Notes under the pieces: generated by a model
Told to the model about the DNA's origin: nothing
Databases searched by the model: none
Seen by the model: only the letters and a program-made list of their open reading frames with translations
Program-made: the position numbers and the translations under genes
In this document: positions 97-60,288 of the stretch, in pieces
How positions within the stretch are numbered: position 1 is the stretch's first letter
Layout: each line of letters begins with the position of its first letter
Source of the DNA: Candidatus Magasanikbacteria bacterium RIFOXYC2_FULL_42_28
GTDB taxonomy: Bacteria > Patescibacteriota > Patescibacteriia > Magasanikbacterales > GWA2-37-8
Direction of reading: 5' to 3'
Assembly: GCA_001784435.1 (NCBI GenBank)
Contig: MFQZ01000001.1
Location: 16,032 to 80,031, forward strand
Length of the DNA stretch: 64,000 bases

Positions 97-813
97 TTAG
101 GTCCATATATTATGCTTCTTTAAAACAATCTCTCGCGCCACTTCGTATTCCTTCACATCTTTTATTTTAAACGGTAATTTAAAAAATATTTTTGGAAGCC
201 AGCCACTCATTCCCTTTCGGCCACGGACGATTTTAGAATATAGACACTCTGACAAATATATTCCGATTTTATTTTTTTCAAACATCGTGAGCCACAAATC
301 CCAGTCCTGGAATCTTTTGAGCGCGGGATCAAAACCGCAAAAATCTTTCATGCGAATAAGCGAGGTGGTATCAATGTAATTTTGTTTTTTTAACGCGCCA
401 GCATCAAACTCTTGGCTCGGCATTTTTTTCCAACCAAATTTATAATCGCAATACACATAACTATTTTCCGGATTTTTTTCTAAAACTTCCACCATTTTTG
501 CGAGCATTTCCGGCTGAGCAATGGTATCCGCATCCCAAAAAATTACATACTCACCATTTGCCTCTTTAAACCCACAATTACGCGCGACCGGAGCGCCTTG
601 GTTAGTTTGGTTAATAATTTTAATATTTAGACGTAAAAACTTTTCATCTGCCAAAATTTTTTTAATTTCCTCGCCAAAATTATCAGCACTGCCATCATTA
701 ACAATAATTACCTCCAAATTTTTATAGGTTTGGCAACGCAAAGAATCCAAACTTTTAATCAAAGTTTTGGCGTGATTATAAACAGGAATAATTACGGAAA
801 TTAGTTTAAACAT
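97..813 (-). CDS. Glycosyltransferase family 2
   Basis: N-terminal IIPVYN...DGSAD motif typical of GT-A fold family 2 glycosyltransferases; 238-aa ORF. Confidence 0.7.
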   Translation of the reverse strand: MFKLISVIIPVYNHAKTLIKSLDSLRCQTYKNLEVIIVNDGSADNFGEEIKKILADEKFLRLNIKIINQTNQGAPVARNCGFKEANGEYVIFWDADTIAQPEMLAKMVEVLEKNPENSYVYCDYKFGWKKMPSQEFDAGALKKQNYIDTTSLIRMKDFCGFDPALKRFQDWDLWLTMFEKNKIGIYLSECLYSKIVRGRKGMSGWLPKIFFKLPFKIKDVKEYEVAREIVLKKHNIWT

Positions 814-838
814 GATGAAAATATTGGATATTTGGTAT

Positions 839-866
839 TTGGATTTGATTTGACATTGGAAATTTG
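839..866. repeat. Solo copy of recurrent AT-rich motif TTGGATTTGATTTGACATTGGAAATTTG (contains TTGACA; TATAAT 16 nt downstream at 872-877 on plus strand)
   Basis: Same ~28-45 nt motif also at 31911-32025 (as inverted pair) and 60246-60288, each next to the start of a minus-strand gene. Confidence 0.5.
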
Positions 867-870
867 ATAT

Positions 871-1734
871 TTATAATATCACACTCTCCCGATCCTGCCC
901 CTTGGGTGGTAAAATATACAAATCGGTACGACCATACTCATCTAACCCAATCCCCTCACCTTGGCCAGATAGAACGGCCAGAAGGGGCTTGCAGTAACGA
1001 CAGGACTCGCCTTCCGGGCATTTAAAGCGATTTAACTGGCGGGCCAATTTCATTTGCATTGCCACATCCAAAACTCGCTTTTTGGACTCGGCTAAATCCG
1101 GCAAGGGCTTTTCAGTTAATTCATCATTAGTTTCCAAATACCAATAACTGGCCTTGGTCACTTGCCGTTTTTGGCAGTTGGTGACTAATAGATTATAAAT
1201 CGGCAATTGGAGCGACGCTTCGTCCTCTTCGCTTTTCCCGGTTTTAAAATCCACGATGTGAACGCTGTCGGTCTCGGGCAAATATTCCAGCCAGTCAATT
1301 TTCCCACACAAAATTATCCCCTCCTCTTCGGACAACCAATAATAAGGTAAGTCTTCTTTAATTTTTACCGCCGGTTTTTTTAAAATTCCCGGATGATTAT
1401 ACGCGCGTCGCAACATTTCTTCACCGCGCGCCCGATATTTATTTTCTGTCGTCTCATCCCAAAATCCACCGCGCTTACCGGAAAATTTTGGCCACAAGTC
1501 ATGAAATTTATCCAAAAGAGATAAATCAAAGCGCTTATCAGTCGGCAAGACCGAAATTGATTCTAACACTTCGTGTACTGCCGACCCCAAAGCCAGCGCC
1601 GGCGCCATTACTTTTATTTTATGATTTGTTTTGGGATCCTTGTAAACATTTTGATAATAATACAATTGCGGACATTTCAAAAAATCACTGGAAGACGAGT
1701 GTGAGACCCACACGGCGGAAAATTTATCAGGCAT
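871..1734 (-). CDS. PD-(D/E)XK nuclease family protein, Cas4/RecB-like with Cys cluster
   Basis: IVDFKTGK motif (D...E.K core), N-terminal Cys plus C-terminal CPEGESCRYC cluster resembling Cas4/AddB Fe-S nuclease domains; no CRISPR array nearby. Confidence 0.55.
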   Translation of the reverse strand: MPDKFSAVWVSHSSSSDFLKCPQLYYYQNVYKDPKTNHKIKVMAPALALGSAVHEVLESISVLPTDKRFDLSLLDKFHDLWPKFSGKRGGFWDETTENKYRARGEEMLRRAYNHPGILKKPAVKIKEDLPYYWLSEEEGIILCGKIDWLEYLPETDSVHIVDFKTGKSEEDEASLQLPIYNLLVTNCQKRQVTKASYWYLETNDELTEKPLPDLAESKKRVLDVAMQMKLARQLNRFKCPEGESCRYCKPLLAVLSGQGEGIGLDEYGRTDLYILPPKGQDRESVIL

Positions 1735-3298: not shown

Positions 3299-4312
3299 TT
3301 AACAACGCAAACGACGAATTAAACAATAAATTAAATAAATAGTCGAACGCAAAGGCAAATCAAAGGTACCAGGATCTTCGTGATAGGTGGCGTTAAAACC
3401 GACTTTAAATCGCGAAACGCCGGCGTAGCGATGCGTCGGATCATACTGATAGGCACCGCCGTTGGAAACATTGGGCGCGACGCCAAAAAAATCATAAAAT
3501 TTATACCCAGTCGATTTTGCAAATTTAATCGCTTCCCACTGCGCCAAATACGGCGCCATTAATTGGCGATATTCGTGGTCAGACGCGCCGTATAAATAAT
3601 AAATTGTTTCGCCAAATCCAAACAAACAAACTGATGCTAAAGCGACATCATTATCAAAAATAGTAATTTGTGTGACCGCCGGATGACTCACGGCGACGTG
3701 ATAGGTTGATTCGGGGTGCAAAATAAAATTGTCGCGCTCGCCGGTCTTTTTAAATAAATCCCAAAATACTTTAAAATTTTTCGCGCGCGAAACAATCAGA
3801 TTTTTTCGCTGCGCCAAATTTATATTATAACGTGTCTTGGGGTGAAATGATTTTAAAATTTCGTCTTCATTTTTTATTAAATCCAATATCATGGTTGCTG
3901 GTGGGTTGATATCGGTAATTAACTTCATCCTCTTCTTAATATTCGATGAAAAAAAATCCAATATTGTCGGCTCTAACCGAACAAACACACATCCTTTTTC
4001 ATGCAGATAATTAAATAATCCGTTAAGGGATTCCTCCGCTCCCTGCGACGGTCGGTCGGAATGACAGTGAAAAACCGGCCCCTTGTGAATTTGAGCGTAT
4101 TTAAATCCCAAGAATAAATTCTTATAAACTACCTGCGCTAGTAATTTTACCTCACCTTCTTCAACTAACAAACGTTCAACTTTTTGCCCGATTGATTCCA
4201 AAATTTCTCCCCATTCAAACGATTGCAAAAAATTAGCCGACGCTGAATTTGCCAACTTATTCCATTCATTTTTGTCGGTAATTATTTTAATCATATTAGC
4301 GATCGCAACCAC
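3299..4312 (-). CDS. FemAB-family peptidoglycan bridge-forming aminoacyltransferase (paralog 1)
   Basis: 337 aa; C-terminal FKxGFN/YDFFG-like region and overall architecture resembling FemX/FemAB family; tandem with a paralog. Confidence 0.55.
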   Translation of the reverse strand: MVAIANMIKIITDKNEWNKLANSASANFLQSFEWGEILESIGQKVERLLVEEGEVKLLAQVVYKNLFLGFKYAQIHKGPVFHCHSDRPSQGAEESLNGLFNYLHEKGCVFVRLEPTILDFFSSNIKKRMKLITDINPPATMILDLIKNEDEILKSFHPKTRYNINLAQRKNLIVSRAKNFKVFWDLFKKTGERDNFILHPESTYHVAVSHPAVTQITIFDNDVALASVCLFGFGETIYYLYGASDHEYRQLMAPYLAQWEAIKFAKSTGYKFYDFFGVAPNVSNGGAYQYDPTHRYAGVSRFKVGFNATYHEDPGTFDLPLRSTIYLIYCLIRRLRC

Positions 4313-7941: not shown

Positions 7942-8394
7942 TTAGACGCGACGGCGTTTAGGAGGCCGACAGCCGTTGTGAGGAATCGGGGTAACATCGT
8001 TAATCGCTACCACATTCAAACCGTGAGTATGTAAAGCGCGAATCGCGCCTTCGCGACCACCACCTACTCCTTTTATAAACACACTCACTTCTTTGATACC
8101 ATAATCAACCACTTTATCAATGCAATCTTTGGCCACTTGCGAGGCGGCGTACGGAGTGGCTTTTTTGGGGCCTTTAAAACCAACTTTACCGGCGGATGAC
8201 CAACTCAAAACATTGCCGGTCGGATCGGCCAAAGTAATAATGGTATTATTGTAAGATGCTTGAACATAAGCGTGCGCGCGCGGAACTTGACGCACGGCTT
8301 TTTTCTTTTTGGTCTTGACCACTTTAGTCGCCGGCGCAGCCGCGTCAGTAACCGCTGGTTTAGTGGTGTCAGTTTTAATTTTTTCTTCGGACAT
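7942..8394 (-). CDS. rpsK: 30S ribosomal protein S11 with Lys/Ala-rich N-terminal extension
   Basis: C-terminal GLNVVAINDVTPIPHNGCRPPKRRRV signature of S11. Confidence 0.9.
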   Translation of the reverse strand: MSEEKIKTDTTKPAVTDAAAPATKVVKTKKKKAVRQVPRAHAYVQASYNNTIITLADPTGNVLSWSSAGKVGFKGPKKATPYAASQVAKDCIDKVVDYGIKEVSVFIKGVGGGREGAIRALHTHGLNVVAINDVTPIPHNGCRPPKRRRV

Positions 8395-8421
8395 ATATCA
8401 ATATATCAAAGTTGGGATAAA

Positions 8422-8805
8422 TTAAGTTTTTGTCTCTTTCTTCTTACCGGAAACAGCAGTTTTGCGCACATTACCACGCACGGTGCGGGAGTTAGTTTTG
8501 GTACGTTGACCACGAACCGGCAAATGCTTCATGTGGCGCAATCCAATATAACTTTTGATGTCTTTCAGCCGTTTAATGTTAAACATCACTTCCCGACGCA
8601 AATTGCCTTCAGTGGTATATTCTTTTTCCACAATATCGCGCAATAAATCTTCTTGAGCCGGAGTTAAATCCTTAACGCGGATATTCCAATCAATCTTGGC
8701 TTTTTCCAAAATTTTATTGGTGAGGGTCTGACCGATGCCGTAAACATAGTTCAACGACACGCCGATTTTTTTCTCCTTAGGGATATTTGTTCCTGCAATT
8801 CTCAT
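8422..8805 (-). CDS. rpsM: 30S ribosomal protein S13
   Basis: MRIAGTNIPKEKKIGVSLNYVYGIG N-terminus of S13; the longer ORF to 8880 overlaps rpmJ and is an artefactual extension. Confidence 0.9.
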   Translation of the reverse strand: MRIAGTNIPKEKKIGVSLNYVYGIGQTLTNKILEKAKIDWNIRVKDLTPAQEDLLRDIVEKEYTTEGNLRREVMFNIKRLKDIKSYIGLRHMKHLPVRGQRTKTNSRTVRGNVRKTAVSGKKKETKT

Positions 8806-9417: not shown

Positions 9418-9900
9418 TTACTCACTTTTTTGGCTAATTTCAGCTAAATTATCAGGCAAAATAACTACTCTATACACCCAAAATTTATACAAAAAGAAAT
9501 TCCAACTGACCGCAAAAATAACATTTAAAGTCCGCAATATTAAATAGGCAACATCTACTGTGTGGACACCAAACCCTAACGGCCATGATACACCCACCGC
9601 GTCTATCCACAACCACATCCACGCAATTGAAAAAAAATAATTGGCAATTAATAACATAATAAATCTTTTCATCTGACGCGTGGTGTTACCGCTGGATTTA
9701 AAAGACCAAAATTTATGCGCGTAAAACACATAAACAACCACAACAATTTGCCCCAGCGCCACCGCGATTGTCGGTTTTAATTTTAAAAATTCTTTAAAAA
9801 ATATCAAAACGAGAATATCCAAAACAAACGCGCTGCTACCGGCGAGAAAATAATTAATAAAACGATGAACGTAAAGATAGTTGTAAAGTTTTTTAAACAC
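9418..9900 (-). CDS. GtrA-family membrane protein (polysaccharide/glycolipid flippase accessory)
   Basis: 160 aa, four predicted TM helices, size and hydropathy typical of GtrA-like proteins. Confidence 0.5.
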   Translation of the reverse strand: MFKKLYNYLYVHRFINYFLAGSSAFVLDILVLIFFKEFLKLKPTIAVALGQIVVVVYVFYAHKFWSFKSSGNTTRQMKRFIMLLIANYFFSIAWMWLWIDAVGVSWPLGFGVHTVDVAYLILRTLNVIFAVSWNFFLYKFWVYRVVILPDNLAEISQKSE

Positions 9901-13329: not shown

Positions 13330-14697
13330 TTATTGAATACCTGGTTTGTAATTAAAAAAATCAACAAACACATTTGATATATTAAGTAGCGGAAAATTTT
13401 CCGATGGGTACGCCACCCAAACTTTGGGCTGATAGCTCATCACAATGCTAAAAGCATTACGATATGACTCCTCAAACGAAACCATGCCATTGAGCAAAGA
13501 TTTATCATCTTCTTGAGTCGGTGCGATATCACTATTCAACCTGGCACCAATTTTTAAATTGACAAAACTTCCATAATTAATCATTTGATCGTGCATACTC
13601 TGCAACCCCGCCGTCTCCGCATTAAGATTATTGAGACGCTTAATCTCACTTCTTATAACAGATAAATTTGATTGGTAATGGGAATCAAATTCACCCAAAT
13701 TATTCATGTAAGAAATTACATTTCCATGTGAGTTTACAATTTCTTTTCGTTTAAAAAAATCTGCGTCAATTTTATTCAATGCGTCTTCGGCTTTACCATT
13801 TTTATATAAAAGGTCAGAAGCATCACGCGCATCAACTAATTTTGACACCCCCGTTTGAAACAAATTGTATTGAGGCGATACGTCAAAATTTTTCACAGCC
13901 AAATCGTCAACTGTGGTTTTTAAAGTAACTAATCTCTTTTTATAATCGACTATACTTTCATCCGCACTCTTTAAAACTCGAGCCCATTTCACAGCATACT
14001 CTAACGCCGGCCGCGATATATTTATTTTTGCAACCAAATCCTTCAAATTATCGACATTAATAGTAAGCAGTTCATTGTCTTCTTTAATGCCTTGAATTTT
14101 GGAATAAACAACATCCAATGCCGCCAAATTTTCTTTTACACCGGCCGGTGCCGCTACGCCGCGTTTTTCTATAAGATTTTCCAATTGATGTTTATACCAA
14201 AGTAAATCGCGACGCATGAATGAAAGTCTTTTTTTCAATGCCGGAATAAAATTATAATAATCCAAATCAACTGATAATGAAGTTAATTTATCCTGTATTT
14301 CTGACGCGGTAAAGCACTGGATTCCTTTTATTTGTTTGTTGGGATTTTTTAATACTTCTACGCCATATCTTATCTTCGCTAAATCAAATATGATTGGATC
14401 ATAAATGACAGCGCCAAAACTCTCTATACTTAAACGTTTATCATTTAATTCTTTTAGTGCATCCTCCATTTCAACAATCGTCATTTGTTTTTTTTCAGGT
14501 TGCAGTTGAGTAGTAGAGACAATACTGGTGATTTCCGCTAGCGCAATTTGATTCGTATCGGAAAAATTAGCAACTAAATTTGCCTGCTTTGAGTATCTAA
14601 ATACCAAAACTAAAATTATTACAAATAAAACTAATATTGGCACAAAAAACGTAAATACCACCACCAATTTCTTGTTCATAAAATTTCGGATTAACAC
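13330..14697 (-). CDS. Hypothetical protein with N-terminal TM anchor and extended helical/coiled-coil region
   Basis: N-terminal hydrophobic segment (VVVFTFFVPILVLFVIILVLVF) followed by charged helical sequence. Confidence 0.35.
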   Translation of the reverse strand: MLIRNFMNKKLVVVFTFFVPILVLFVIILVLVFRYSKQANLVANFSDTNQIALAEITSIVSTTQLQPEKKQMTIVEMEDALKELNDKRLSIESFGAVIYDPIIFDLAKIRYGVEVLKNPNKQIKGIQCFTASEIQDKLTSLSVDLDYYNFIPALKKRLSFMRRDLLWYKHQLENLIEKRGVAAPAGVKENLAALDVVYSKIQGIKEDNELLTINVDNLKDLVAKINISRPALEYAVKWARVLKSADESIVDYKKRLVTLKTTVDDLAVKNFDVSPQYNLFQTGVSKLVDARDASDLLYKNGKAEDALNKIDADFFKRKEIVNSHGNVISYMNNLGEFDSHYQSNLSVIRSEIKRLNNLNAETAGLQSMHDQMINYGSFVNLKIGARLNSDIAPTQEDDKSLLNGMVSFEESYRNAFSIVMSYQPKVWVAYPSENFPLLNISNVFVDFFNYKPGIQ

Positions 14698-14706
14698 AGA
14701 ACTACG

Positions 14707-16020
14707 TCATTTACTCAAGATTTCTCCCCCACCCAAACATTCGCCTTTCAAGTAAAAAACAGCAAATTGCCCTGGAGTGACGGCGCGTTGGGGTTTGGTG
14801 AATTTGACGACGAGAGATTGCTCCCCGTATCGTGAGTACGGGGCAGGCTGTCGCTCGGAATGACAACTGGTTACGACACAATCTTGCAATTCTTGACGAT
14901 GACGGAGCCGTACTTTACATTTTAGCGGTAATTTTGGGGTTTGTCCAGCGAGCCAGTTTATGCCCGAGACAGTTATTTCTTTTTTAAATAAAAGTGGATC
15001 GTCGTTTGTGCCGACGATTATGGTGTTGTTTTTTGGGTTTTTTTCGATAACGAACAGTGGTTTTTGTTCCCGGGTGATTGCTCCCACCACCCCCTCGCCC
15101 CCTCCTCGGGCAGGAGGGGAGAAACGAACGCCGACGCGTTCGCCGATGGTGTAAAACGGCAGGCCATCATGTTCACCCAATAATTCGCCACTCGTGGAAA
15201 TAATTTTCCCCGGCTTGGCTTTTACTTTTCCTTTTAAAAATTCTCGCATTGGCATTTCGCCGACAAAACAAATTCCCATGCTTTCGGCTTTATCGGCCGT
15301 GGGTAAATTAAATTTTTTTGCGAGTGCGCGCACTTCAAGTTTAGTGTAACCGCCAATTGGAAAAAGTGTTTTACTTAATTGTTTTTGGGTGAGTTGGTTT
15401 AAGAAATAAGTTTGGTCTTTGTTGGTGTCGGCGGATTGTAATAATTTACAGGCGACTTTGGGACAGAGATCCCGACTTTCGTCGGGATGACAAGTGACGG
15501 GCTTGCCCGGCGTAACGCAGTGAAGCCGGGCGTAATGTCCCGTCGCGAGTTTATCAAAACCTAACTTTTGCGCTTTTTCTAACCAGGCGCCAAATTTTAC
15601 AAATTTATTACATAAAATATCCGGGTTGGGCGTACGGCCGGCAGAATATTGTTTGTAACAATAATCTAACACCATTTTTTTATATTCTTTGACAAAATCC
15701 AAACGGAGTAATGGTATTTTTAATTTCGCGGCCACACGGAGGGCGTCTTGATAATCGGCGTGCCAGCAGGGCTCCGTTCCGACTACGTCGGAACTACGCC
15801 CTGTAAACACACTACCAGAAAAACTTGCCGGGCGTAGTCCAGAGGACGAAGCCCAACTTGTGGGGCGTAGCCGTTCAGGCGAAGCCCCATAATTAACCAT
15901 AAAAGCACCGGTCACATCATAACCAGCTTTTACGAGCAAGGCCGCGGCAACGCTTGAATCCACTCCGCCGGACATTGCGACCAAAATTTTTTCTTTTCTT
16001 TTACTGGCCATACTGACCAT
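14707..16020 (-). CDS. mnmA: tRNA-specific 2-thiouridylase MnmA carrying in-frame GC-rich insertions
   Basis: PP-loop SGGVDSSV, GRTPNPDILCNKFVKF catalytic Cys region, C-terminal PQRAVTPGQFAVFY...CLGGGEI all match MnmA; three GC-rich palindromic segments add ~30, ~10 and ~10 residues relative to E. coli MnmA (from memory). Confidence 0.85.
   Translation of the reverse strand: MVSMASKRKEKILVAMSGGVDSSVAAALLVKAGYDVTGAFMVNYGASPERLRPTSWASSSGLRPASFSGSVFTGRSSDVVGTEPCWHADYQDALRVAAKLKIPLLRLDFVKEYKKMVLDYCYKQYSAGRTPNPDILCNKFVKFGAWLEKAQKLGFDKLATGHYARLHCVTPGKPVTCHPDESRDLCPKVACKLLQSADTNKDQTYFLNQLTQKQLSKTLFPIGGYTKLEVRALAKKFNLPTADKAESMGICFVGEMPMREFLKGKVKAKPGKIISTSGELLGEHDGLPFYTIGERVGVRFSPPARGGGEGVVGAITREQKPLFVIEKNPKNNTIIVGTNDDPLLFKKEITVSGINWLAGQTPKLPLKCKVRLRHRQELQDCVVTSCHSERQPAPYSRYGEQSLVVKFTKPQRAVTPGQFAVFYLKGECLGGGEILSK
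14805..14866. repeat. GC-rich palindromic element inside mnmA 3' region (family related to 17731-17835)
   Basis: tgacgacgagag...ccccgtatcgtgagtacgggg hairpin...gtcgctcggaatgacaa; right end nearly identical to cctcgctcgggatgacaa at 17810-17832. Confidence 0.5.
15099..15119. repeat. Perfect GC hairpin cccctcct-cgggc-aggagggg inside mnmA coding sequence
   Basis: 8-bp G/C stem in a gene that is otherwise AT-rich; encodes the extra PPARGGGEG segment. Confidence 0.5.
15771..15890. repeat. GC-rich palindromic insertion inside mnmA 5' region
   Basis: ccgactacgtcgg palindrome and ggactacgccc...gggcgtagtcc inverted repeat; motif tccgacTacgtcgga resembles attccgacGacgaagga of the 17731 element. Confidence 0.5.
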
Positions 16021-16501: not shown

Positions 16502-16571
16502 ATTGATGCGATGGGCGCATCCTAATTTAAATATATATTTAAATATATATTCAAGTATATACTTGAATATA
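16502..16571. promoter_or_regulatory. Cluster of three palindromes upstream of DUF805 gene (gatgcg-N5-cgcatc; ATTTAAATATATATTTAAAT; TATATTCAAGTATATACTTGAATATA)
   Basis: Perfect 20-nt and 26-nt AT palindromes; the 28-nt string atcctaatttaaatatatatttaaata is repeated at 54616-54643 and the core at 47478-47503. Confidence 0.45.
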
Positions 16572-16637
16572 TACAGAAACTTGCCTACCGGTAAGCAAAT
16601 TATAATTGTAAACAGTTTAATTATACCACAAACTAAT

Positions 16638-17730: not shown

Positions 17731-17835
17731 CTGTCATTCCGACGACGAAGGAGGAATCTCTATCCCGTTGGACAATTTTACGGAAAAATGGAGATCCCTC
17801 GTCGGCGCGAGCCTCGCTCGGGATGACAAATGACA
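17731..17835. repeat. GC-rich imperfect palindromic element in rpoD-murG spacer
   Basis: tgtcattccgacgacgaagg ... cctcgtcggcgcgagcctcgctcgggatgacaaatgacaa; arms pair with 1-2 mismatches; related copies embedded in mnmA. Confidence 0.5.
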
Positions 17836-19189: not shown

Positions 19190-21040
19190 TTACTTCAAAT
19201 TTTGAAATTCAATTAAAAGTTTATTTTGCTCATCGCGATTTCCAGATTTTTCCGCTTCTACCATTTGATGTTGCACTTCGGCTCGACGTCTTTTTAGCCA
19301 TTCATCTTTAATTTCTCGCACGAGCGCCAACACTTCCTCTTTCGCCCGCTCTTCATCATAATCCACAAACTCGAGTTCAGCCCGCATTTGCCAAGGGTTT
19401 ATATCAAAATCGGCCGTCAAAGTCAAATCAGACGCCTTCTTGATATTCGCGTTTATATTATACTGGTTTTTTAGCCATTCGTAAAGCGGTTCCGCACCAG
19501 AACCGGCATATGCCCCAACTGGCAAGATATCTGTTATACAAGAAAACAAGGCGGGATATTTCAAAACTGCTAACACACAACGTTCGCGACGACGTTCAAA
19601 ACTATCAGTAATAACTGGTTTAATAGTGGTTGTGACATCTTTTTTTGATTGAGGTAAGCGCGTTCTCTTTTGCAAATCTACAAGATTTTCTTTCATAACC
19701 ACAATATTAGTATCAAGCTTTTCAGCTATTAATTTTAACCAATGATCACGTATGATTGAATAAGGAATCAGACCAACGAATGATAAAAAATCATCAGCAA
19801 CTGTTTGCTTGTCTTTTGGTGATGATAAATTTTTTCCAACCAAAACCATATCAAAAAGCCATTCCATGATTTCACGCGCATTCTTTACTGCCATAAACCA
19901 AACATCTGGATTTTTTTTCAAACACTCATCTGCATCCTTTCCTGCGCCTTCAGGAATTTTTATAATACCAACATTTAAACCCTCTTTAATAGCCACCCCA
20001 ACAACTCTCTTCACCGCATTAACTCCGGCGCCATCAGCATCAAATGCCATTTTTATATTATTTGTATACCTCTTAATTAGTCCAAATTGATTACTTCTTT
20101 GTTGTTCCGATTCAGATAAAGTATCATCCGTTTCAAGCTTAAATGCCGTTCCCGAAGCCGCCACCACATTTTTCATTCCAGCCTGATGACAGGCAATCAC
20201 ATCCATTTGCCCTTCCACCATCACCACCAAATCTTTTGACTTAATTTCCGTTTTCGCTTTATTCAACCCATACAACACGCGCGATTTATCATATACCAAA
20301 GTTTGCGGAGTATTGACATATTTTCCACCCGCTTCCAAATTTTCATGCAATTGCCGTCCGGTAAAACCAACCACATCACCGTGCACATTCCAAATTGGAA
20401 ACATAATCCGATCACGAAAGCGGTCATAATATCTGGCTAAGTTATTTACCAAAACGGGCTTGCCCGGCGTAGCCGAAGGCGAAGACGGGTCTTTTTTAAT
20501 TGTGAGCCCAGCCGCCACCATATCATCAATTCCAATTCCTTTTTTTAATAAATATTGCGTTAACAAATCCCATTGATCAGGAATATATCCAACTTGCCAA
20601 TCCGCGATTGTTTCCGTTTTTAATTGCCGTCGCTCCAAATATTCGCGCGCTTCTTTTGACGCCGGCATGTCTAACAAAAATCGATGATAAAAATATGCGG
20701 CCTTGGCATTAACTTCCAAAATCCGATTTTTCTGACTTTTATTAACTTCACTTTGAAAATTATTATCTAATTTTACGCCCGCTCGATCCGCCAATAGTTT
20801 CAACGCCTCGGGAAAATCCAGCCCCTCCATTTCTTGCGCGAAAGAAAATATATCCCCTGATTTAGAGCACCCAAAACAATGCCAAAATTGCCGTTCAGCG
20901 TTTACCATAAACGACGGGGTTTTTTCCTTATGAAACGGACAGCACGCCTTCCAATATATACCCGCCTTTTTTAAAGGCAGATATTCGCCAATGAGCGTGA
21001 CAATGTCCAATTTATCTTTGATTGATTGCGTGTCGGTCAT
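19190..21040 (-). CDS. dnaG: DNA primase DnaG
   Basis: N-terminal zinc finger [12 protein letters not shown]...CFGC, TOPRIM region ([11 protein letters not shown]); immediately upstream of rpoD as in MMS operon. Confidence 0.9.
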
Positions 21041-21068
21041 AATAATTTTAATTGCGAAATCTCTTCAC

Positions 21069-22994: not shown

Positions 22995-23026
22995 AATTTA
23001 ATTTTAGATTTATATGAGAATTTTTT

Positions 23027-23150
23027 CCTTATGAAACGGACAGCACGCTTTCCAATAGATACCGGCCTTTTAAATCGGCAGATATTCGCCAATGAGCGTG
23101 ACTATGTCCAATTTATCTTTGATTGATTGCGTGTCGGTCATGGGAAATTT
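23027..23150 (-). pseudogene. Degenerate duplicate of dnaG 5' end (first ~41 codons; premature stop)
   Basis: ~90% identical over ~124 nt to 20917-21040; translates [23 protein letters not shown] ; direct repeat flanking the SLT gene insertion. Confidence 0.8.
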
Positions 23151-23154
23151 AAAA

Positions 23155-25212: not shown

Positions 25213-25672
25213 TAAACTCTAAATACTAAACCCTAAATTCTAAACAAACCCAAAATACAAATAATAAATGTTCAAATTTTCGAAATAATTGCGCCAAATA
25301 TTTTCATAAGCTGTGTTGCTTCATCAATTAAAATTTTTCTTTCCGCTTCGTGTATTGTTAACGCGTCCACTAATCTCAACCACAAAACTGATTCTTTTGC
25401 TTCTTTGCGACAAATCTTAATTCTCATTACAAAATCCTTTTTACTTAACGACTCACTTGCTTCAATATAATTCGCAGCAACCGAACCTGACGAACGAATT
25501 AATTGCTTGGCATATTCTATATTTGATATATTTCTTGGTAATTTTTTTACAAATAATTTTGTATTATAAGCAAATTTAAATATTCTATCGTGTAAATCAA
25601 ACACCGGTTTTGGATTTTGTATTTCAGACATTTGAACTTGTTTAGAATTTAGGGTTTAGAGTTTAGTATTTA
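25213..25672. mobile_element. Miniature element: four-helix-bundle protein gene flanked by 35-bp imperfect inverted repeats built from TTTAG-type units
   Basis: Left taaactctaaatactaaaccctaaattctaaacaa (25213-25247) vs reverse complement of right (25638-25672) taaatactaaactctaaaccctaaattctaaacaa; sits exactly between stop of one permease paralog and start of the other. Confidence 0.5.
25272..25631 (-). CDS. Four-helix-bundle protein (23S rRNA intervening-sequence protein family)
   Basis: 119 aa all-helical protein, A..YIEA..S.S...F....I...EA.ES.YWL motif characteristic of this family. Confidence 0.65.
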   Translation of the reverse strand: MSEIQNPKPVFDLHDRIFKFAYNTKLFVKKLPRNISNIEYAKQLIRSSGSVAANYIEASESLSKKDFVMRIKICRKEAKESVLWLRLVDALTIHEAERKILIDEATQLMKIFGAIISKI

Positions 25673-31910: not shown

Positions 31911-32025
31911 TTAATTTCAAAATCCAAATTTCCAATTTCCAAAATAATGTCAAAGCCAAAATGTCAAATTTGATATTTTGATTTTGGATTTGATTTGACA
32001 TTGGAAATTGGAAATTTGACATTAC
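31911..32025. repeat. ~115-bp AT-rich foldback (inverted pair of the TTTGACATTGGAAATTTGGATTTTGAAATTAA motif) between pilT and cca
   Basis: Left arm ttaatttcaaaatccaaatttccaa...aatgtcaaagcc is reverse complement of right arm ...tttgacattggaaattggaaatttgacatt; solo copies at 839-866 and 60246-60288. Confidence 0.55.
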
Positions 32026-39950: not shown

Positions 39951-40023
39951 CGGGCTATAGCGCAGTTGGTAGCGCGCGTGGTTCGGGACCACGAGGCCGT
40001 GGGTTCAAATCCCACTAGCCCGA
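39951..40023 (+). tRNA. tRNA-Pro (anticodon CGG)
   Basis: Manual cloverleaf: acceptor CGGGCUA/UAGCCCG, D-arm GCGC-AGUUGGUA-GCGC, anticodon stem CGUGG/CCACG loop UUCGGGA, T-arm GUGGGUUCAAAUCCCAC. Confidence 0.8.
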
Positions 40024-40028
40024 CACAT

Positions 40029-40370
40029 TAAAAAAGAAAGCAAATGCTTTCTTTTTTAATGTGTCGCAGTCACTGAACGACGTGCGAACCTTTTTTGAAA
40101 AAAATATTATTGGCCAATAATCGAGTTTCCGCGCCCCGTCCGGCGGACGGGGCAACAAACAAGTTTGTTTTTTTCTGAAAGAAAAAGCGGAAACCGTGAA
40201 CCCGTTTGCCCCGACCAAGTCGTGGCAAAATTGTTCGCGACAAGCCCCCCCCCTGTCCGTTTGTGTTGAAAATTACTTTTTGCCTACCACCGCCAGAGGC
40301 GGGCAGGCGTATCGGGCGGGCGTGTCTGAGTGGCTGGTGGGTGGATATTAGTATTTAAATACTAATACGC
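40029..40370. repeat. Left copy of ~340-bp inverted repeat (IR-L) bounding accessory island; begins with hairpin aaaaaagaaagcaaatgctttctttttt
   Basis: ~88% identical to reverse complement of 54624-54968; contains conserved hairpins (ccccgtcc-ggcg-ggacgggg; ccgcc-aga-ggcgg) and ends inward with palindrome tattagtatttaaatactaata. Confidence 0.85.
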
Positions 40371-47385: not shown

Positions 47386-47477
47386 AATGTTAAAAATGCC
47401 TTAAATTAAGGGTACTTTTACTATATCACATTTTTCAAATATTTACCACCAACATTAACCCATGGATACTAGACGCT

Positions 47478-47503
47478 ATGATTTAAATATATATTTAAAT
47501 CAT
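47478..47503. promoter_or_regulatory. Perfect 26-nt palindrome ATGATTTAAATATATATTTAAATCAT
   Basis: Core ATTTAAATATATATTTAAAT identical to sites at 16525-16544 and 54624-54643; lies between two island genes upstream of the Cys-rich gene. Confidence 0.45.
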
Positions 47504-47506
47504 GAT

Positions 47507-47983
47507 TTAATTTTTGCCTTCAAAATCAATTAATATCTGTAAATAACGCTTTTGTAGTTCAATATTGGCATACTCTGCTGGAAACATTGAAATTTTACCA
47601 CCGTTGTTAATAATATCGTCAATGCCGTCAAAATAAAACCCGTCCAATGTGGCAATAAACAAATAAGACGGATTCCACGATTTACTCATTCGCACGGCGT
47701 CTTCTAAAACATATTTTAAATTTAAATTACGCATATATTTTACCTCAACCAGCTGAACTTTTTTTGTTTTCTGATTGATAACTGCGAAATCTGGTGCTGT
47801 TCGTAGCGTCTCAATAATGTCGTTATTTTTCTTATCGTGTCCTTGTTGGACTAATTCAGGAATTATTTTTTCATAACCAAATTCCAAAACCGTAAAATCT
47901 TTGGTTTCGCGCAACATTTGCGCGAAGATTGTCTCGGCAATTTTACCTTTGACTAAATTTCTGGCAAAAGTTATGTTGCTCAT
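47507..47983 (-). CDS. Small putative PD-(D/E)XK-fold nuclease-like protein
   Basis: Pattern GKIAE...PDFAV...VQLVEVKY resembling the D...(E/Q)xK core of Hjc/Mrr-like nucleases; inference only. Confidence 0.3.
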   Translation of the reverse strand: MSNITFARNLVKGKIAETIFAQMLRETKDFTVLEFGYEKIIPELVQQGHDKKNNDIIETLRTAPDFAVINQKTKKVQLVEVKYMRNLNLKYVLEDAVRMSKSWNPSYLFIATLDGFYFDGIDDIINNGGKISMFPAEYANIELQKRYLQILIDFEGKN

Positions 47984-54422: not shown

Positions 54423-54623
54423 AATTTAAAAAACCTGCCAATGCTTATAAAAATCTACAATGCATATGCCGACCGTTTGTGGCCATTTAGTCGGTGAGTG
54501 TAATTTGGTACCCAGACGATAATATTCTACCACAATTCGCCAAACCAATCAACAACGAAGGGATGATTGCTTTTGACCAATTAGTTGCGTTAATTGAGAT
54601 AATAAACCGCAATAATTTATCCT

Positions 54624-54968
54624 AATTTAAATATATATTTAAATACTAATACGCCCCACACACCGCCCACCCAAACAAGCCCGCCCAATACACCCACCCG
54701 CCTCTGGCGGGGACAAGCAAAAAGTAATTTTCAATACAAACGGACAGGGGGGGCTGGTCGCGGACAATTTGCCACGACTTGGTCGGGGCAAACGGGTTCG
54801 CGGTTTCCGCTTTTTCTTTCAGAAAAAAACAAACTTGTTTGTTCGCCAGTCCGCTGGACTGGCAGGCGGAAACTCGATTGCTGGCCAATAATATTTTTTT
54901 CAAAAAAGGTTCGCACGTCGTTCAGTGACTGCGACAAAACAAAAAAGAAAGTGGGTGCTTTCTTTTTT
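54624..54968. repeat. Right copy of ~340-bp inverted repeat (IR-R); inner end is the 28-nt AT palindrome string, outer end hairpin aaaaaagaaagtgggtgctttctttttt
   Basis: Reverse complement aligns with 40029-40370; hairpin maintained by compensatory pairs (gccagtcc-agcg-ggactggc vs ccccgtcc-ggcg-ggacgggg). Confidence 0.85.
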
Positions 54969-59148: not shown

Positions 59149-60264
59149 CTACCACCAAACAATTAATCTTAAAAAATAATAATATAATTTAAATATCGCG
59201 TTAACAAAAAATTTTAGTGGCGCCGAAATAACCAATTCCGCCGAACCAATTGTGGCCACAACTTGAGCCAACAATTGCCGATCACTCATTTTTCGTGTCC
59301 GTAAATTATTTCGTCGCAGTTCACGCCAAATTTGCCAATTTTTGGAACTAAGCCAATACCTATAAACCCGTAATAATTCCGATAGCCAACCGCCCCCACC
59401 GGCCACAATCATTAGGCCTAAATTATACACTATTTCCAGTGGCCAAGTCAAAATTAGCGTGGGCCATTTATAAAATAGATATTTCAGTGCGTGACGGTTG
59501 CGTTCTAACCAATAAAACTTTTCCAAATTTTTGCTAAAGGTATATTCGTGAAAAAATTCCGCCTGACTGGCCAACACCACTCTAAACCCATTGATTTTCA
59601 AACGAAGTGAATATTCCGTGTCCTCATGATACAAATAAAACTCCTCGTGCCACTTACCAAATTTTTTTAACAAATCAACGCGCAACATCGTCGCGGCGCC
59701 AGAAGCATAGCCAATATCTTTGATTGTCGGCAAAATCACTTTATCAACTCGCTCGCGATAATTCGCGCAATAACCAATTCCTAAATAATGAAAATTATTA
59801 CCAGCGCTATTTATCAAATTTGTTTCCGGATAAAGACGAATTAAACTTTGCACCTGCCCGATATTTTTATCACTCGCAAACGCGCTGGCCATCTCGTTAA
59901 TCGCGTCGGGTGCTAAAAATCCATCGGCATTATGCAAAAAAACATAATCGCAATCATTGTCTATCGCCCATTGCAGGCCGACATTATTTCCGGCCGGAAA
60001 TCCTAAATTTTTTGCTTGCGCTAAAACAACAGTTTCCGGTAGGATGTTTTTATTTTTTAATACTTCACTTTCAATAAAAGATAACTGTGACACCTCGTCC
60101 GGCTTATACGAATTATAAACAACCACCAAACGCAAATTCTCACGCGCGTAATTTTGCTTTACTATCGCCTCCAAAGCCCGCGCCAAAAATTTACTCGGCT
60201 CATCCGACCACACCAGATACACAATCGCCACTTTGGCATTCAAATTTTGGATTTGGTTTGACAT
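59149..60264 (-). CDS. Glycosyltransferase family 2 with C-terminal membrane segment
   Basis: GT2 DxD region (VFLHNADGF), N-terminal codons MSNQIQN lie inside the recurrent repeat motif. Confidence 0.6.
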   Translation of the reverse strand: MSNQIQNLNAKVAIVYLVWSDEPSKFLARALEAIVKQNYARENLRLVVVYNSYKPDEVSQLSFIESEVLKNKNILPETVVLAQAKNLGFPAGNNVGLQWAIDNDCDYVFLHNADGFLAPDAINEMASAFASDKNIGQVQSLIRLYPETNLINSAGNNFHYLGIGYCANYRERVDKVILPTIKDIGYASGAATMLRVDLLKKFGKWHEEFYLYHEDTEYSLRLKINGFRVVLASQAEFFHEYTFSKNLEKFYWLERNRHALKYLFYKWPTLILTWPLEIVYNLGLMIVAGGGGWLSELLRVYRYWLSSKNWQIWRELRRNNLRTRKMSDRQLLAQVVATIGSAELVISAPLKFFVNAIFKLYYYFLRLIVWW

Positions 60265-60288
60265 TGGAAATTTGGATTTTGAAATTAA
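60246..60288. repeat. Solo copy of motif TTTTGGATTTGGTTTGACATTGGAAATTTGGATTTTGAAATTAA overlapping GT2 start codon
   Basis: Shares 30+ nt with the arms of the 31911-32025 foldback. Confidence 0.5.

What the first reader, a model, noticed from the sequence alone, without database searches (positions are those of the whole stretch)
14775..15895. GC-rich palindromic elements inserted in frame into mnmA, related to an intergenic palindrome
mnmA is recognisable end to end but contains three short, strongly GC-rich segments in an otherwise AT-rich gene. Each forms a hairpin or palindrome: ccgactacgtcgg / ggactacgccc...gggcgtagtcc at 15771-15890; cccctcct-cgggc-aggagggg at 15099-15119; and ccccgta-tcgtgag-tacgggg followed by gtcgctcggaatgacaa at 14805-14866. 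They add roughly 30, 10 and 10 residues in loops relative to E. coli MnmA as I recall its sequence. The third shares its end (g/cctcgctcggRatgacaa) and a ccgacNacg motif with the intergenic palindrome at 17731-17835. This resembles Rickettsia palindromic elements, which insert in frame into genes and are tolerated as peptide insertions.
Basis: partly seen in the sequence, partly recalled or inferred. Interest (0 to 1): 0.6.

Follow-up and report, generated by a model that had tools for sequence, protein, structure and literature searches.

The report
Hairpin repeats inserted in-frame in mnmA
The gene for a tRNA-modifying enzyme in an uncultured groundwater bacterium (Magasanikbacteria) carries four in-frame patches of short GC-rich hairpin repeats that are probably translated as floppy surface loops; this is the same kind of selfish-DNA insertion known from Rickettsia genes, and one repeat type is built like the hairpin motif that Ssn nucleases recognise.

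Summary
mnmA (14707-16020, minus strand, 437 aa) has GC-rich segments (GC 0.59-0.76; core 0.42) that are absent from solved MnmA structures and from the shortest homologs. They hold 6 perfect hairpins of at least 7 bp (0.2 expected). AlphaFold gives pLDDT below 50 for these segments only.

They are built from three dispersed repeat families.
- **Family A** is TGTCAT, a palindrome, then ATCYC. It also forms both halves of the intergenic palindrome at 17732-17828 and occurs in frame in a FemAB-like gene. It has the architecture of the NTS/SRM hairpins bound by Ssn GIY-YIG nucleases (Chenal 2025).
- **Family B** also occurs in dnaG.
- **Family C** recurs almost identically in a radA-like gene in another metagenome.

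The exact family A hairpin occurs in at least 119 metagenome stretches. Some copies lie next to ssn-like genes, and others lie in frame in TopA, TatD, RadA-like and CobN genes.

Close relatives carry different elements at the same four loops. Two assemblies are identical, which rules out a chimera.

It works like Rickettsia palindromic elements but is not a member of those families. No ssn gene lies in the window, and how the elements spread is unknown.

The parts
14707..16020 (-). mnmA coding sequence (437 aa), the host gene. It is intact, with the PP-loop SGGVDSS and the conserved Cys137 and Cys251.
   Evidence: The AF2 model has TM 0.87-0.89 (normalised to target) to MnmA structures 2hma and 2det.
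15769..15888 (-). Site 1 insert (aa 45-84, 120 nt, GC 0.60), a composite of family B. It has two tandem 33-nt units (15856-15888 and 15823-15855; GGGGCTTCGCCTGAACGGCTACGCCCCACAAGT and a variant), an 18-nt spacer, then an inverted arm plus the perfect hairpin GTTCCGAC-GTA-GTCGGAAC (15769-15804).
   Evidence: (z -4.2). The first 33-nt unit is absent from relative P0002. pLDDT is below 50 at aa 50-81.
15505..15531 (-). Site 2, 5' part: family B hairpin GCCCGGC-N13-GCCGGGC. Its first arm overlaps the conserved codons Ala164-Arg165. It shares an identical 18-mer, ACGGGCTTGCCCGGCGTA, with the dnaG copy.
15466..15492 (-). It is read as CHPDESRDL.
   Evidence: z -3.8; the same hairpin in at least 119 metagenome stretches. 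pLDDT is below 50 at aa 172-187.
15079..15120 (-). Site 3 insert (aa 301-314, SPPARGGGEGVVGA, GC 0.76): family C unit with the hairpin CCCCTCCT-GCCCG-AGGAGGGG followed by a G-rich tail.
   Evidence: About 38 nt are nearly identical in a RadA-like gene on an unrelated contig, L102, and a related copy lies in L021. pLDDT is below 50 at aa 305-317.
14812..14865 (-). Site 4 insert (aa 386-403, CHSERQPAPYSRYGEQSL): a decayed family A unit (TGTCATTCCGAGCGA...GAGCAATCTC) with the nested 7-bp hairpin CCCCGTA-CTCACGA-TACGGGG.
   Evidence: pLDDT is below 50 at aa 389-399.
17732..17828 (.). Intergenic palindrome between rpoD and murG. It consists of two family A units in inverted orientation: 17732-17760 on the + strand (TGTCATTCCGACGACGAAGGAGGAATCTC) and 17791-17828 on the - strand (TGTCATCCCGAGCGAGGCTCGCGCCGACGAGGGATCTC).
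   Evidence: z -3.5. Relative L003 has an inverted doublet of regex-perfect SRM units in the same intergenic position.
4027..4066 (-). Family A-like unit in frame inside a FemAB-family ORF (3299-4312), read as CHSDRPSQGAEESL. The stem is decayed.
   Evidence: The folding z-score is -0.2.
20456..20489 (-). Family B unit in frame inside dnaG (19190-21040), read as [14 protein letters not shown]. The region is about 11 residues longer than in PDB primase 2au3. The unit is shared with relative L003.
   Evidence: (I11).

Best explanation
Four permissive loops of MnmA have been colonised by short, GC-rich, stop-codon-poor hairpin repeats from at least three dispersed families.

**What the insertions are.** The insertions and their local tandem or inverted duplications add whole numbers of codons and introduce no stop, so the ribosome reads straight through them. 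They add about 70-95 residues of disordered loop to an otherwise normal MnmA.

**Family A.** Its layout is TGTCAT, a palindrome, then ATC-YC. This is the layout of the NTS/SRM hairpins that single-domain GIY-YIG 'Ssn' nucleases bind and cut in single-stranded DNA. In other Patescibacteria the same hairpins flank ssn-like genes and also sit inside housekeeping genes. Families B and C have no known partner protein.

**Why these four loops.** Most likely the elements do nothing for MnmA, being selfish or neutral DNA. Selection removes every insertion that breaks the frame, introduces a stop or hits a structured part. What survives piles up in the same four loops and turns over quickly between relatives.

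**Shown:**
- The repeats are dispersed.
- They are in frame at loops that vary across homologs.
- Close relatives differ by presence, absence or replacement of elements.
- The exact family A hairpin lies next to ssn-like genes elsewhere.

**Inferred:**
- That the segments are translated and the enzyme still works.
- That an Ssn nuclease acts on these particular copies.
- How the elements spread. No target-site duplications are seen, so a single-strand, recombination or duplication route is more likely than a cut-and-paste transposase.
For: **The four segments are extra loops.**
- Four segments are absent from PDB MnmA.
- In 121 aligned Patescibacteria sequences (the window's MnmA plus 120 homologs; lengths 285-462 aa, the shortest a partial sequence) the same four sites are the length-variable ones. 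Between 67 and 90 sequences exceed the site minimum by at least 5 residues at each site.
- pLDDT is below 50 only at aa 50-81, 172-187, 305-317 and 389-399. The rest of the model is mostly above 90, with TM 0.87-0.89 to MnmA crystal structures.

**The content is repeat-derived.**
- Peptide signatures of TGTCAT units occur 63 times in 5,812 loop residues, against 28 times in 41,412 core residues, and are found at all four sites.

**Turnover between relatives (codon alignment with two relatives at 74-77% identity).**
- A 33-nt unit is present or absent at site 1.
- Different elements, in a different reading frame, occupy site 2.
- Two extra tandem TGTCAT units sit at site 3 in one relative only.
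- Site 4 holds an unrelated element.

**Dispersal.**
- TGTCAT[TC]CC occurs 5 times in the window against 0.7 expected.
- Family B is also in dnaG, and family C is also in an unrelated RadA-like gene.
- Of the 85 copies in the 80 loci held, 21 lie in long open frames. Pfam-confirmed hosts include RadA-like, TatD, TopA, CobN and Wzy_C proteins.
- All five stop-free frames of the unit are used. The one frame that contains TGA is never used.

**Link to Ssn.**
- The architecture matches NTS CGTCATTCCCGCGMAVGCGGGAATCYRG (PMC11893778).
- The closest relative has three regex-perfect SRMs, where 0.06 hits are expected per 64-kb shuffled window. One lies inside mnmA. Two form a doublet at the same intergenic place as the window's palindrome.
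- GIY-YIG ORFs of 94-101 aa (PF01541) lie next to the hairpin in L139 (hairpin-ssn-hairpin), L100 and L146.
- In a Patescibacteria MAG (L205) an ssn-like gene is flanked by inverted hairpins, and further units lie inside RNase HII, PMT and MiaA genes. A Moranbacteria locus (L207) shows the same flanks.

**Not an artefact.** DNA is identical in two separate assemblies.
Against: - No ssn or other GIY-YIG gene lies in the 64-kb window or in the loci of the closest relatives. The rest of the genome could not be searched.
- The published SRM search pattern finds nothing in the window. The window's copies have other stem sequences, and two of them (site 4 and the FemAB copy) have decayed stems whose folding is no better than shuffles.
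- Copy number within the window is low: about 5 family A ends, 4-5 family B units and 1 family C unit.
- A generic 'GTCAT + stem' scan is not enriched over shuffles.
- None of the other neighbouring genes compared with the relative shows an element-derived indel. Why mnmA is so heavily loaded is therefore unexplained.
- Part of site 1 (FTGRS...AE[TP]) is shared at the same position by many homologs. It may be old and vertically inherited rather than a recent insertion.
- No transcript, peptide or enzyme-activity data exist.
Confidence: 0.8

Rival explanations
1. The segments are lineage-specific functional loops of MnmA that evolved in place (for example for partner or tRNA binding). Their hairpin potential would be incidental, and they would not be mobile or repeat DNA.
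For: - The family C hairpin at site 3 is conserved in the three closest relatives.
- The FTGRS motif at the end of site 1 recurs at the same position in many homologs.
- The four sites are variable in most Patescibacteria MnmA.
Against: - The same DNA units occur in intergenic DNA, in dnaG, in a FemAB-like gene and in unrelated genes of other organisms.
- Relatives at 74-77% identity carry unrelated elements at the same site, even in another reading frame.
- The shortest homologs lack all four segments.
- The segments are predicted to be disordered.
Confidence: 0.08
2. The hairpins have been co-opted. They might act as recombination or Ssn-cleavage hot spots that diversify or shield the locus during DNA uptake, or as mRNA structures that tune mnmA translation.
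For: - In Neisseria, NTS hairpins and SsnA modulate integration of transforming DNA and cluster around particular genes (PMC11893778).
- P0002 looks like a recombinant: it matches P0001 over most of the gene but resembles the window around site 3.
- Hairpin density in mnmA is 24 times that of the rest of the window.
Against: - No ssn gene lies in the window.
- Several copies are decayed.
- Rapid turnover with no conservation of sequence or orientation is what neutral or selfish DNA would show.
- No functional data exist.
Confidence: 0.1
3. They are true members of the Rickettsia palindromic element (RPE) families.
For: They behave alike: palindromic, in frame, in conserved genes, at loops. RPE features are taken from PMC2229807 and PMC10969869.
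Against: - The insert peptides hit no NCBIfam model at E<=10, while the whole protein hits MnmA. I recall that the library contains RPE domain models but did not verify it.
- Units are 24-54 nt, against 105-146 bp for RPEs.
- The host is a Patescibacterium, not Rickettsia.
Confidence: 0.02
4. The segments are an assembly chimera or sequencing artefact, or mnmA is a pseudogene, or the segments are spliced out (as introns or inteins).
For: Local GC jumps and repeats are typical places for mis-assembly.
Against: - 21,314 nt including mnmA are 100% identical in an ENA assembly and a JGI assembly. Whether both derive from the same reads is unknown.
- Relatives from other samples carry the same kind of inserts.
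- The ORF is intact and passes the MnmA equivalog cut-off.
- Rfam finds no intron or other RNA family in the window apart from two tRNAs.
- The segments are far too short for inteins.
Confidence: 0.02

Closest known systems
NTS / Ssn-related motifs (SRM), the hairpin repeats recognised by single-domain GIY-YIG ssDNA endonucleases of the Ssn family (cd10448); Chenal et al. 2025, Nat Commun, PMC11893778
   Same: - Family A has the same layout: (C/T)GTCAT, a palindrome that begins AT and ends AT, a C directly after it, then Y. These are the positions the paper found critical for binding (the C after the palindrome) and for cleavage (the 3 nt before it).
- Loop identity is free, and GAAA is commonest.
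- The closest relative's copies satisfy the published search pattern.
- The identical hairpin flanks ssn-like genes in metagenome contigs and in Patescibacteria MAGs, in the hairpin-ssn-hairpin arrangement the paper describes.
   Different: - The window's own copies fail the published pattern because their stems differ (CCCGAC, TCCGAG...).
- No ssn gene lies within 64 kb.
- The copies of interest lie inside coding sequence and are read in frame. The paper's main text does not mention this (no occurrence of 'intragenic' or 'open reading').
- The paper's main text does not mention Patescibacteria or the Candidate Phyla Radiation.
Rickettsia palindromic elements (RPE); Ogata et al. 2000 Science, reviewed in PMC2229807 and PMC10969869
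   Same: - Palindromic repeats found both between genes and in frame inside conserved housekeeping genes.
- Tolerated as extra peptide segments at loops.
- Hosts have small genomes.
- Regarded as selfish DNA filtered by selection.
   Different: - RPEs are 105-146 bp with 12-bp terminal inverted repeats and genus-specific consensus peptides. The units here are 24-54 nt, often stacked in arrays, belong to other sequence families and come from another phylum.
- Chenal et al. list Rickettsia among the genomes with more than 300 SRMs, so the two may be connected. I could not test that.
REP / REPIN elements and their RAYT (IS200/IS605-like) transposases
   Same: - Short GC-rich hairpins with a conserved, oriented flank.
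- Singlets and inverted doublets; the intergenic palindrome at 17732-17828 looks like a REPIN-style doublet.
- No target-site duplication.
   Different: - REPs are, by definition, extragenic.
- Their partner enzyme is a HUH tyrosine transposase rather than a GIY-YIG nuclease.
- I did not search for a RAYT gene.
Bacterial MITEs that carry open reading frames (ERIC, the 107-bp Correia element, Coxiella QMITE1)
   Same: Non-autonomous repeats that are occasionally fused in frame to host ORFs.
   Different: MITEs are 100-200 bp with terminal inverted repeats and usually TA or other target-site duplications. No such duplications are seen here.

Membership tests
NTS/SRM hairpin repeats (Ssn-related motifs) | Oriented flank GTCAT (HGTCWY) directly 5' of, and overlapping, the palindrome. 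| tested here: met
   TGTCAT begins all five family A copies in the window: 15492, 14865, 17732, 17828 and 4066.
NTS/SRM hairpin repeats (Ssn-related motifs) | A 20-50 nt imperfect palindrome able to form a hairpin, followed at once by C. | tested here: met
   - Site 2 is ATCCCGAC-GAAA-GTCGGGAT then C (8 bp).
- The intergenic units end GGAATC and GGGATC.
- The copies at site 4 and at 4027-4066 keep the ends, but their stems are decayed.
NTS/SRM hairpin repeats (Ssn-related motifs) | Match to the published search pattern HGTCWYN(0-2)YYVSBRHN(0-5)WNVSBRGN(0-2)RNCYNB. | tested here: not met
   There are 0 matches in the window, against 0.06 expected by chance. The closest relative L003 has 3 matches: one in mnmA and two in the rpoD-murG spacer.
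NTS/SRM hairpin repeats (Ssn-related motifs) | A cognate ssn gene (single-domain GIY-YIG, cd10448) in the genome, often flanked by the motif. | tested here: inconclusive
   - None lies in the 64-kb window or in L001-L085.
- The identical hairpin flanks GIY-YIG ORFs in L139, L100 and L146.
- Related hairpins flank GIY-YIG genes in Patescibacteria MAGs L205 and L207.
- The rest of this genome was not available.
- cd10448 membership of those ORFs was not tested directly; only Pfam GIY-YIG was.
NTS/SRM hairpin repeats (Ssn-related motifs) | Bound and cut as single-stranded DNA by the Ssn protein. | not testable with these tools
   This needs a biochemical assay.
Rickettsia palindromic elements (RPE) | Sequence membership in an RPE family (conserved RPE peptide or consensus). 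| tested here: not met
   The insert peptides give no NCBIfam hit at E<=10. I recall that the library contains RPE domain models but did not verify it.
Rickettsia palindromic elements (RPE) | Length 105-146 bp with a long stem-loop and terminal inverted repeats. | tested here: not met
   Units are 24-54 nt. Only the composite at site 1 (120 nt) reaches that size, and it is an array of smaller units. The RPE dimensions are from PMC2229807.
Rickettsia palindromic elements (RPE) | In-frame insertion into conserved protein genes at positions compatible with the fold. | tested here: met
   - The ORF is intact with four extra segments.
- The segments fall between secondary-structure elements and have pLDDT below 50.
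- The core has TM 0.87-0.89 to MnmA structures.
- Surface exposure is predicted, not measured.
MITE (miniature inverted-repeat transposable element) | Terminal inverted repeats plus target-site duplication. | tested here: not met
   No consistent direct repeats flank any unit in the window or in the relatives. Where relatives differ, the flanking sequence is replaced rather than cleanly interrupted.
REP/REPIN-RAYT | A RAYT (IS200/IS605-type Y1 transposase) gene flanked by the repeats. | not tested
   I made no search with a RAYT query. Pfam scans of 10 ORFs in 40.3-54.5 kb showed none.
MnmA (tRNA 2-thiouridine(34) synthase) | Full-length match above the curated cut-off, with the PP-loop and catalytic cysteines. 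| tested here: met
   - NF001138 scores 377 bits (cut-off 284) and TIGR00420 scores 343 bits (cut-off 237).
- All three Pfam domains are present.
- S17-S22, D134, C137 and C251 are invariant in alignment A1.

The most novel reading that the evidence does not exclude
Ssn-type hairpin motifs, together with at least two other small hairpin families, may be a general and ongoing source of in-frame loop insertions in housekeeping proteins across Patescibacteria and beyond. Hosts seen here are MnmA, MiaA, RNase HII, RadA-like, TatD, TopA and CobN. If so, 'protein-coding palindromes' would not be a Rickettsia peculiarity. RPEs and NTS/SRM elements would be one phenomenon whose spread depends on single-strand-specific GIY-YIG nucleases. 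Much of the length variation of CPR proteins would then be translated selfish DNA.
Probability: 0.35. Interest if true: 0.65.

Novelty: new member of a known kind. Interest (0 to 1): 0.45.

Why it matters
- **Annotation.** It explains unexplained length variation and 'low-complexity' loops in conserved proteins of candidate-phyla-radiation bacteria as translated repeat DNA. This matters for annotation, alignment-based phylogeny and structure prediction in these genomes.
- **Reach of the phenomenon.** In-frame palindrome insertion, best known from Rickettsia, also occurs in a distant phylum with small genomes.
- **A testable link.** It connects that phenomenon to the Ssn/NTS hairpin system described in 2025, whose role outside Neisseria is open. 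The question becomes whether Ssn nucleases spread or prune these hairpins, and why tRNA-modification and DNA-metabolism genes tolerate them.
- **Limit.** For this window alone the finding is an instance of a known kind of event, not a new mechanism.

Tried and rejected
- **Generic scan.** A scan for GTCAT followed by any stem of at least 6 bp gave 11 hits, against 2-15 in shuffles. It is not informative, because the family is defined by both flanks and not by GTCAT alone.
- **Published SRM pattern.** It gives 0 hits in the window, so I describe family A as SRM-like rather than as a strict member.
- **Search for an ssn gene.** I used recalled consensus sequences and then real Ssn-like proteins and found nothing. 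The recalled consensus was validated afterwards by 61-66% identical hits in L139, L100 and L146.
- **Ortholog comparison.** Comparing nine neighbouring genes with the closest relative, to find more element-derived indels, turned up only an element just upstream of murG in the relative.
- **Genome-contig scan with the MnmA alignment.** It returned mostly distant MnmA genes without inserts. Only about six Magasanikbacteria-like loci came back, and they held no clear family A units.
- **Literature.**
  - No paper reports in-frame palindromes in CPR/Patescibacteria.
  - No paper contains the peptide signatures VIPAKAGIQ, CHSERSEES and the like.
  - A search for the DNA strings led to the Ssn paper. 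Its supplementary tables are not held, so its taxon list could not be checked.
- **Target-site duplications.** None were found.
- **Rfam.** No RNA family overlaps the elements.
- **Considered and dropped.** Inteins or introns (too short, no signatures), a pseudogene (intact and conserved), and an assembly chimera (two identical assemblies).
Full report
**What is there.** The ORF at 14707-16020 on the minus strand encodes a 437-aa MnmA. It scores 377 bits against the NCBIfam MnmA equivalog, whose cut-off is 284. The best homologs are from Candidatus Magasanikbacteria and other Patescibacteria. The window has 40% GC.

Alignment to solved MnmA structures (2hma, 9hlv, 2der; 375-380 aa) leaves four stretches of the query unmatched, at about aa 50-87, 169-190, 299-312 and 385-397. 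As I delimited them, the segments are:

| Site | Window coordinates | Codons | GC |
|---|---|---|---|
| 1 | 15769-15888 | 40 | 0.60 |
| 2 | 15460-15531 | 24 | 0.64 |
| 3 | 15079-15120 | 14 | 0.76 |
| 4 | 14812-14865 | 18 | 0.59 |

The rest of the gene has GC 0.42. Removing the four segments leaves 342 codons, close to the shortest full-length homologs at 349-357 aa.

- A scan for perfect stems of at least 7 bp with loops of 3-9 nt finds 18 in the whole window, 6 of them inside mnmA.
- Shuffles that keep local composition give 0.2-0.25 per gene, and none of 1000 reaches 6. The density is 4.6 per kb in mnmA against 0.19 per kb elsewhere.
- As single-stranded DNA, site 1, site 2 and the intergenic palindrome fold far better than shuffles (z -4.2, -3.8, -3.5). 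Sites 3 and 4 contain perfect 8-bp and 7-bp stems but score only z -1.6 and -1.1 in context.
- The shared end TCGGRATGACA has 6 matches (5 exact, one with one mismatch) against 1.5 expected with one mismatch allowed. TGTCAT[TC]CC occurs 5 times against 0.7 expected.

**Not an artefact.** The exact protein is found on three contigs. The 21,314 nt around it are 100% identical to the window in an ENA assembly (207-kb contig) and in a JGI assembly (47.7-kb contig). I cannot tell whether the two assemblies used the same reads. Relatives from other samples show the same kind of inserts.

**Anatomy: three repeat families.**

*Family A* has the layout TGTCAT, a palindrome, then ATC-YC. The window holds five copies:
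- 15466-15492 (-): TGTCATCCCGACGAAAGTCGGGATCTC, an 8-bp stem with a GAAA loop, read as CHPDESRDL.
- 14812-14865 (-): a decayed unit with a nested CCCCGTA/TACGGGG hairpin, read as CHSERQPAPYSRYGEQSL.
- 17732-17760 (+) and 17791-17828 (-): the two halves of the intergenic palindrome.
- 4027-4066 (-): in frame in a FemAB-family ORF.

*Family B* is GGCGTAG-N5-6-GG(C/A)GAAGCC on the plus strand.
- It forms two tandem 33-nt units plus an inverted arm at site 1, and the GCCCGGC...GCCGGGC hairpin at site 2.
- It lies in frame in dnaG at 20456-20489. The dnaG copy and the site 2 copy share an identical 18-mer.

*Family C* is CCCCTCCT-loop-AGGAGGGG with a G-rich tail, and fills site 3.
- A nearly identical stretch of about 38 nt sits in frame in a RadA-like gene on an unrelated metagenome contig (L102).
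- A related copy occurs in an Uhrbacteria locus.

The other two elements belong to different families.

**Insertions, not ancestral loops.** I aligned 121 sequences (the window's MnmA plus 120 homologs; lengths 285-462 aa, the shortest a partial sequence).
- The same four sites carry nearly all the length variation. Between 67 and 90 sequences exceed the site minimum by at least 5 residues at each site.
- The loops hold peptides that are plain translations of repeat DNA: CHSERSE.., VIPAKAGIQ..LGMT..RDD/..RND, PLLSKEGRRGG. They also hold QMSNFQCQIKSK, the translation of an AT-rich repeat that is intergenic in this window at 812, 31957 and 60220.
- TGTCAT-type signatures occur 63 times in 5,812 loop residues against 28 times in 41,412 core residues, and are seen at all four sites.

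A codon alignment with the two closest relatives (74-77% identity) shows turnover at the DNA level:
- One 33-nt unit of site 1 is missing in P0002.
- Site 2 holds two different TGTCAT units in the relatives, one of them read in another frame (VIPAKAGIQ).
- P0001 has two extra tandem TGTCAT units at site 3.
- Site 4 holds an unrelated family C-like element in the relatives.
- No target-site duplications are visible. Where alleles differ, the flanks are replaced, which suggests recombination.

Part of site 1 (FTGRS...) is shared by many homologs and may be old.

**Effect on the protein.** An AlphaFold2 model built from a 33-sequence alignment has mean pLDDT 81. Values below 50 occur only at aa 50-81, 172-187, 305-317 and 389-399. 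These are the four inserts, and each lies between secondary-structure elements. The model matches MnmA crystal structures with TM 0.87-0.89 normalised to the target. The PP-loop, D134, C137 and C251 are invariant. That the segments are translated and tolerated is an inference from the intact frame and conservation. No expression data were available.

**Comparison with what is known.** A literature search on the DNA strings led to Chenal et al. 2025 (PMC11893778).
- They define the Neisseria NTS as CGTCATTCCCGCGMAVGCGGGAATCYRG, and a generalised 'Ssn-related motif' (SRM).
- Single-domain GIY-YIG nucleases (Ssn, cd10448) bind these hairpins and cut them in single-stranded DNA.
- The C after the palindrome is critical for binding, and the three bases before it for cleavage.
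- The ssn gene is often flanked by the motif.

Family A has exactly this layout. The published search pattern finds nothing in the window (0.06 expected). It finds three sites in the closest relative: one inside mnmA, and an inverted doublet in the same rpoD-murG spacer as the window's palindrome.

The 80 loci that were held contain 85 copies.
- 43 of these copies have the GAAA loop.
- 21 lie within stop-free stretches of at least 150 codons. Hosts confirmed by Pfam include RadA-like, TatD, TopA, CobN and O-antigen ligase proteins.
- All five stop-free frames of the unit are used. The one frame containing TGA is never used.

GIY-YIG ORFs of 94-101 aa lie beside the hairpin in three of the 80 loci, once in the hairpin-gene-hairpin arrangement. 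Homologs of these proteins are named from Moranbacteria, Gracilibacteria and 'Patescibacteria group' genomes.

In one Patescibacteria MAG (L205) the GIY-YIG gene is flanked by inverted TGTCATTCCCGCGAAAGCGGGAATCCA units. More units lie inside the called RNase HII, PMT and MiaA genes of the same 18.6-kb locus. A Moranbacteria locus shows the same flanks.

**What is not shown.**
- No ssn-like gene lies in the window or near the relatives' mnmA.
- The remainder of this genome could not be searched.
- Families B and C have no known partner protein.
- Why mnmA is loaded while its neighbours are not remains unexplained: none of the other nine neighbouring genes compared with the relative shows an element-derived indel.

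**Rickettsia palindromic elements.** They are the closest analogue in behaviour. They differ in size (105-146 bp) and sequence family. The insert peptides hit no NCBIfam model. I did not confirm that RPE models are in that library, so that negative result is weaker than it looks. Chenal et al. list Rickettsia among genomes with more than 300 SRMs, which hints at a link I could not test.

**Verdict.** The interpretation, in-frame palindromic selfish DNA tolerated in loops, is supported in substance. These are not RPEs. They are small hairpin repeats of three families, one of them built like the Ssn-related NTS/SRM motif. I found no paper describing in-frame copies of such hairpins in Patescibacteria, and the Ssn paper's main text does not mention intragenic copies. 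This is a new instance of a known kind of event, of moderate interest. It carries a testable wider reading: these hairpins may be a general source of loop insertions in CPR proteins.

Noticed in passing
window 40030-40344 and 54656-54968: Inverted repeats of about 310 nt and 92% identity bracket a 14.3-kb segment right after tRNA-Pro (39951-40024). A GC hairpin within the repeat shows compensatory changes between the two copies. The segment encodes a HaeII-type restriction enzyme, a C5 methylase fused to RadC, an HNH endonuclease, a histidine kinase, a SET-domain protein and an 1181-aa protein with no Pfam hit. It could be an accessory island or an invertible segment, or the repeat could be a structured RNA or leader. 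Rfam finds nothing there.
   Followed up: partly
window 20920-21051 and 23021-23152: A 132-nt direct repeat (91% identity). The first ~120 nt of dnaG plus its upstream sequence are duplicated upstream of the neighbouring SH3/SLT gene. This is a partial gene duplication of unknown meaning.
   Followed up: no
window 812-879, 31957-32024, 60220-60287 (also 31911-31960): An AT-rich repeat family (GGATTTGATTTGACATTGGAAATT...) sits in short intergenic spacers and partly forms palindromes. Its translation (QMSNFQCQIKSK, EIRNSKF...) appears in frame in the variable loops of MnmA from other Magasanikbacteria. AT-rich repeats are therefore co-opted into proteins as well.
   Followed up: partly
window 16519-16545, 47475-47526 and 54619-54645: The 27-nt AT-rich motif ATCCTAATTTAAATATATATTTAAATA recurs: it is 100% identical at two sites and forms a local 12-nt tandem at 16513-16582. 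The sites are intergenic, so it may be a promoter or terminator-region motif.
   Followed up: no
window 25272-25631: A gene for a 119-aa four-helix-bundle protein of the 23S_rRNA_IVP family (PF05635) lies between two MacB/FtsX paralogs. From my own recollection, not checked here, this family includes accessory proteins of diversity-generating retroelements.
   Followed up: no
L102 (contig Ga0172381_10014394), RadA-like ORF: A single RadA-like protein carries a family C unit (SSPPARGGVGVVGA) and two hairpin doublets (CHPDESRDL...HRNDN and CHPRAGGDP...LRGNDS) in frame. This is a second heavily loaded housekeeping gene.
   Followed up: partly
L205 (GCA_018818145.1, JAHIST010000006.1) 181-244, 9734-9757, 13566-13690: In a Patescibacteria MAG whose ssn-like gene (8307-8597) is flanked by inverted NTS-like hairpins, further units lie inside the called RNase HII, PMT and MiaA genes. 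MiaA is another tRNA-modification enzyme.
   Followed up: partly
L005 / P0002 versus L003 / P0001, mnmA site 3 region: P0002 is nearly identical to P0001 over most of mnmA but resembles the window's allele around site 3. This suggests recombination between alleles next to the repeat arrays.
   Followed up: no
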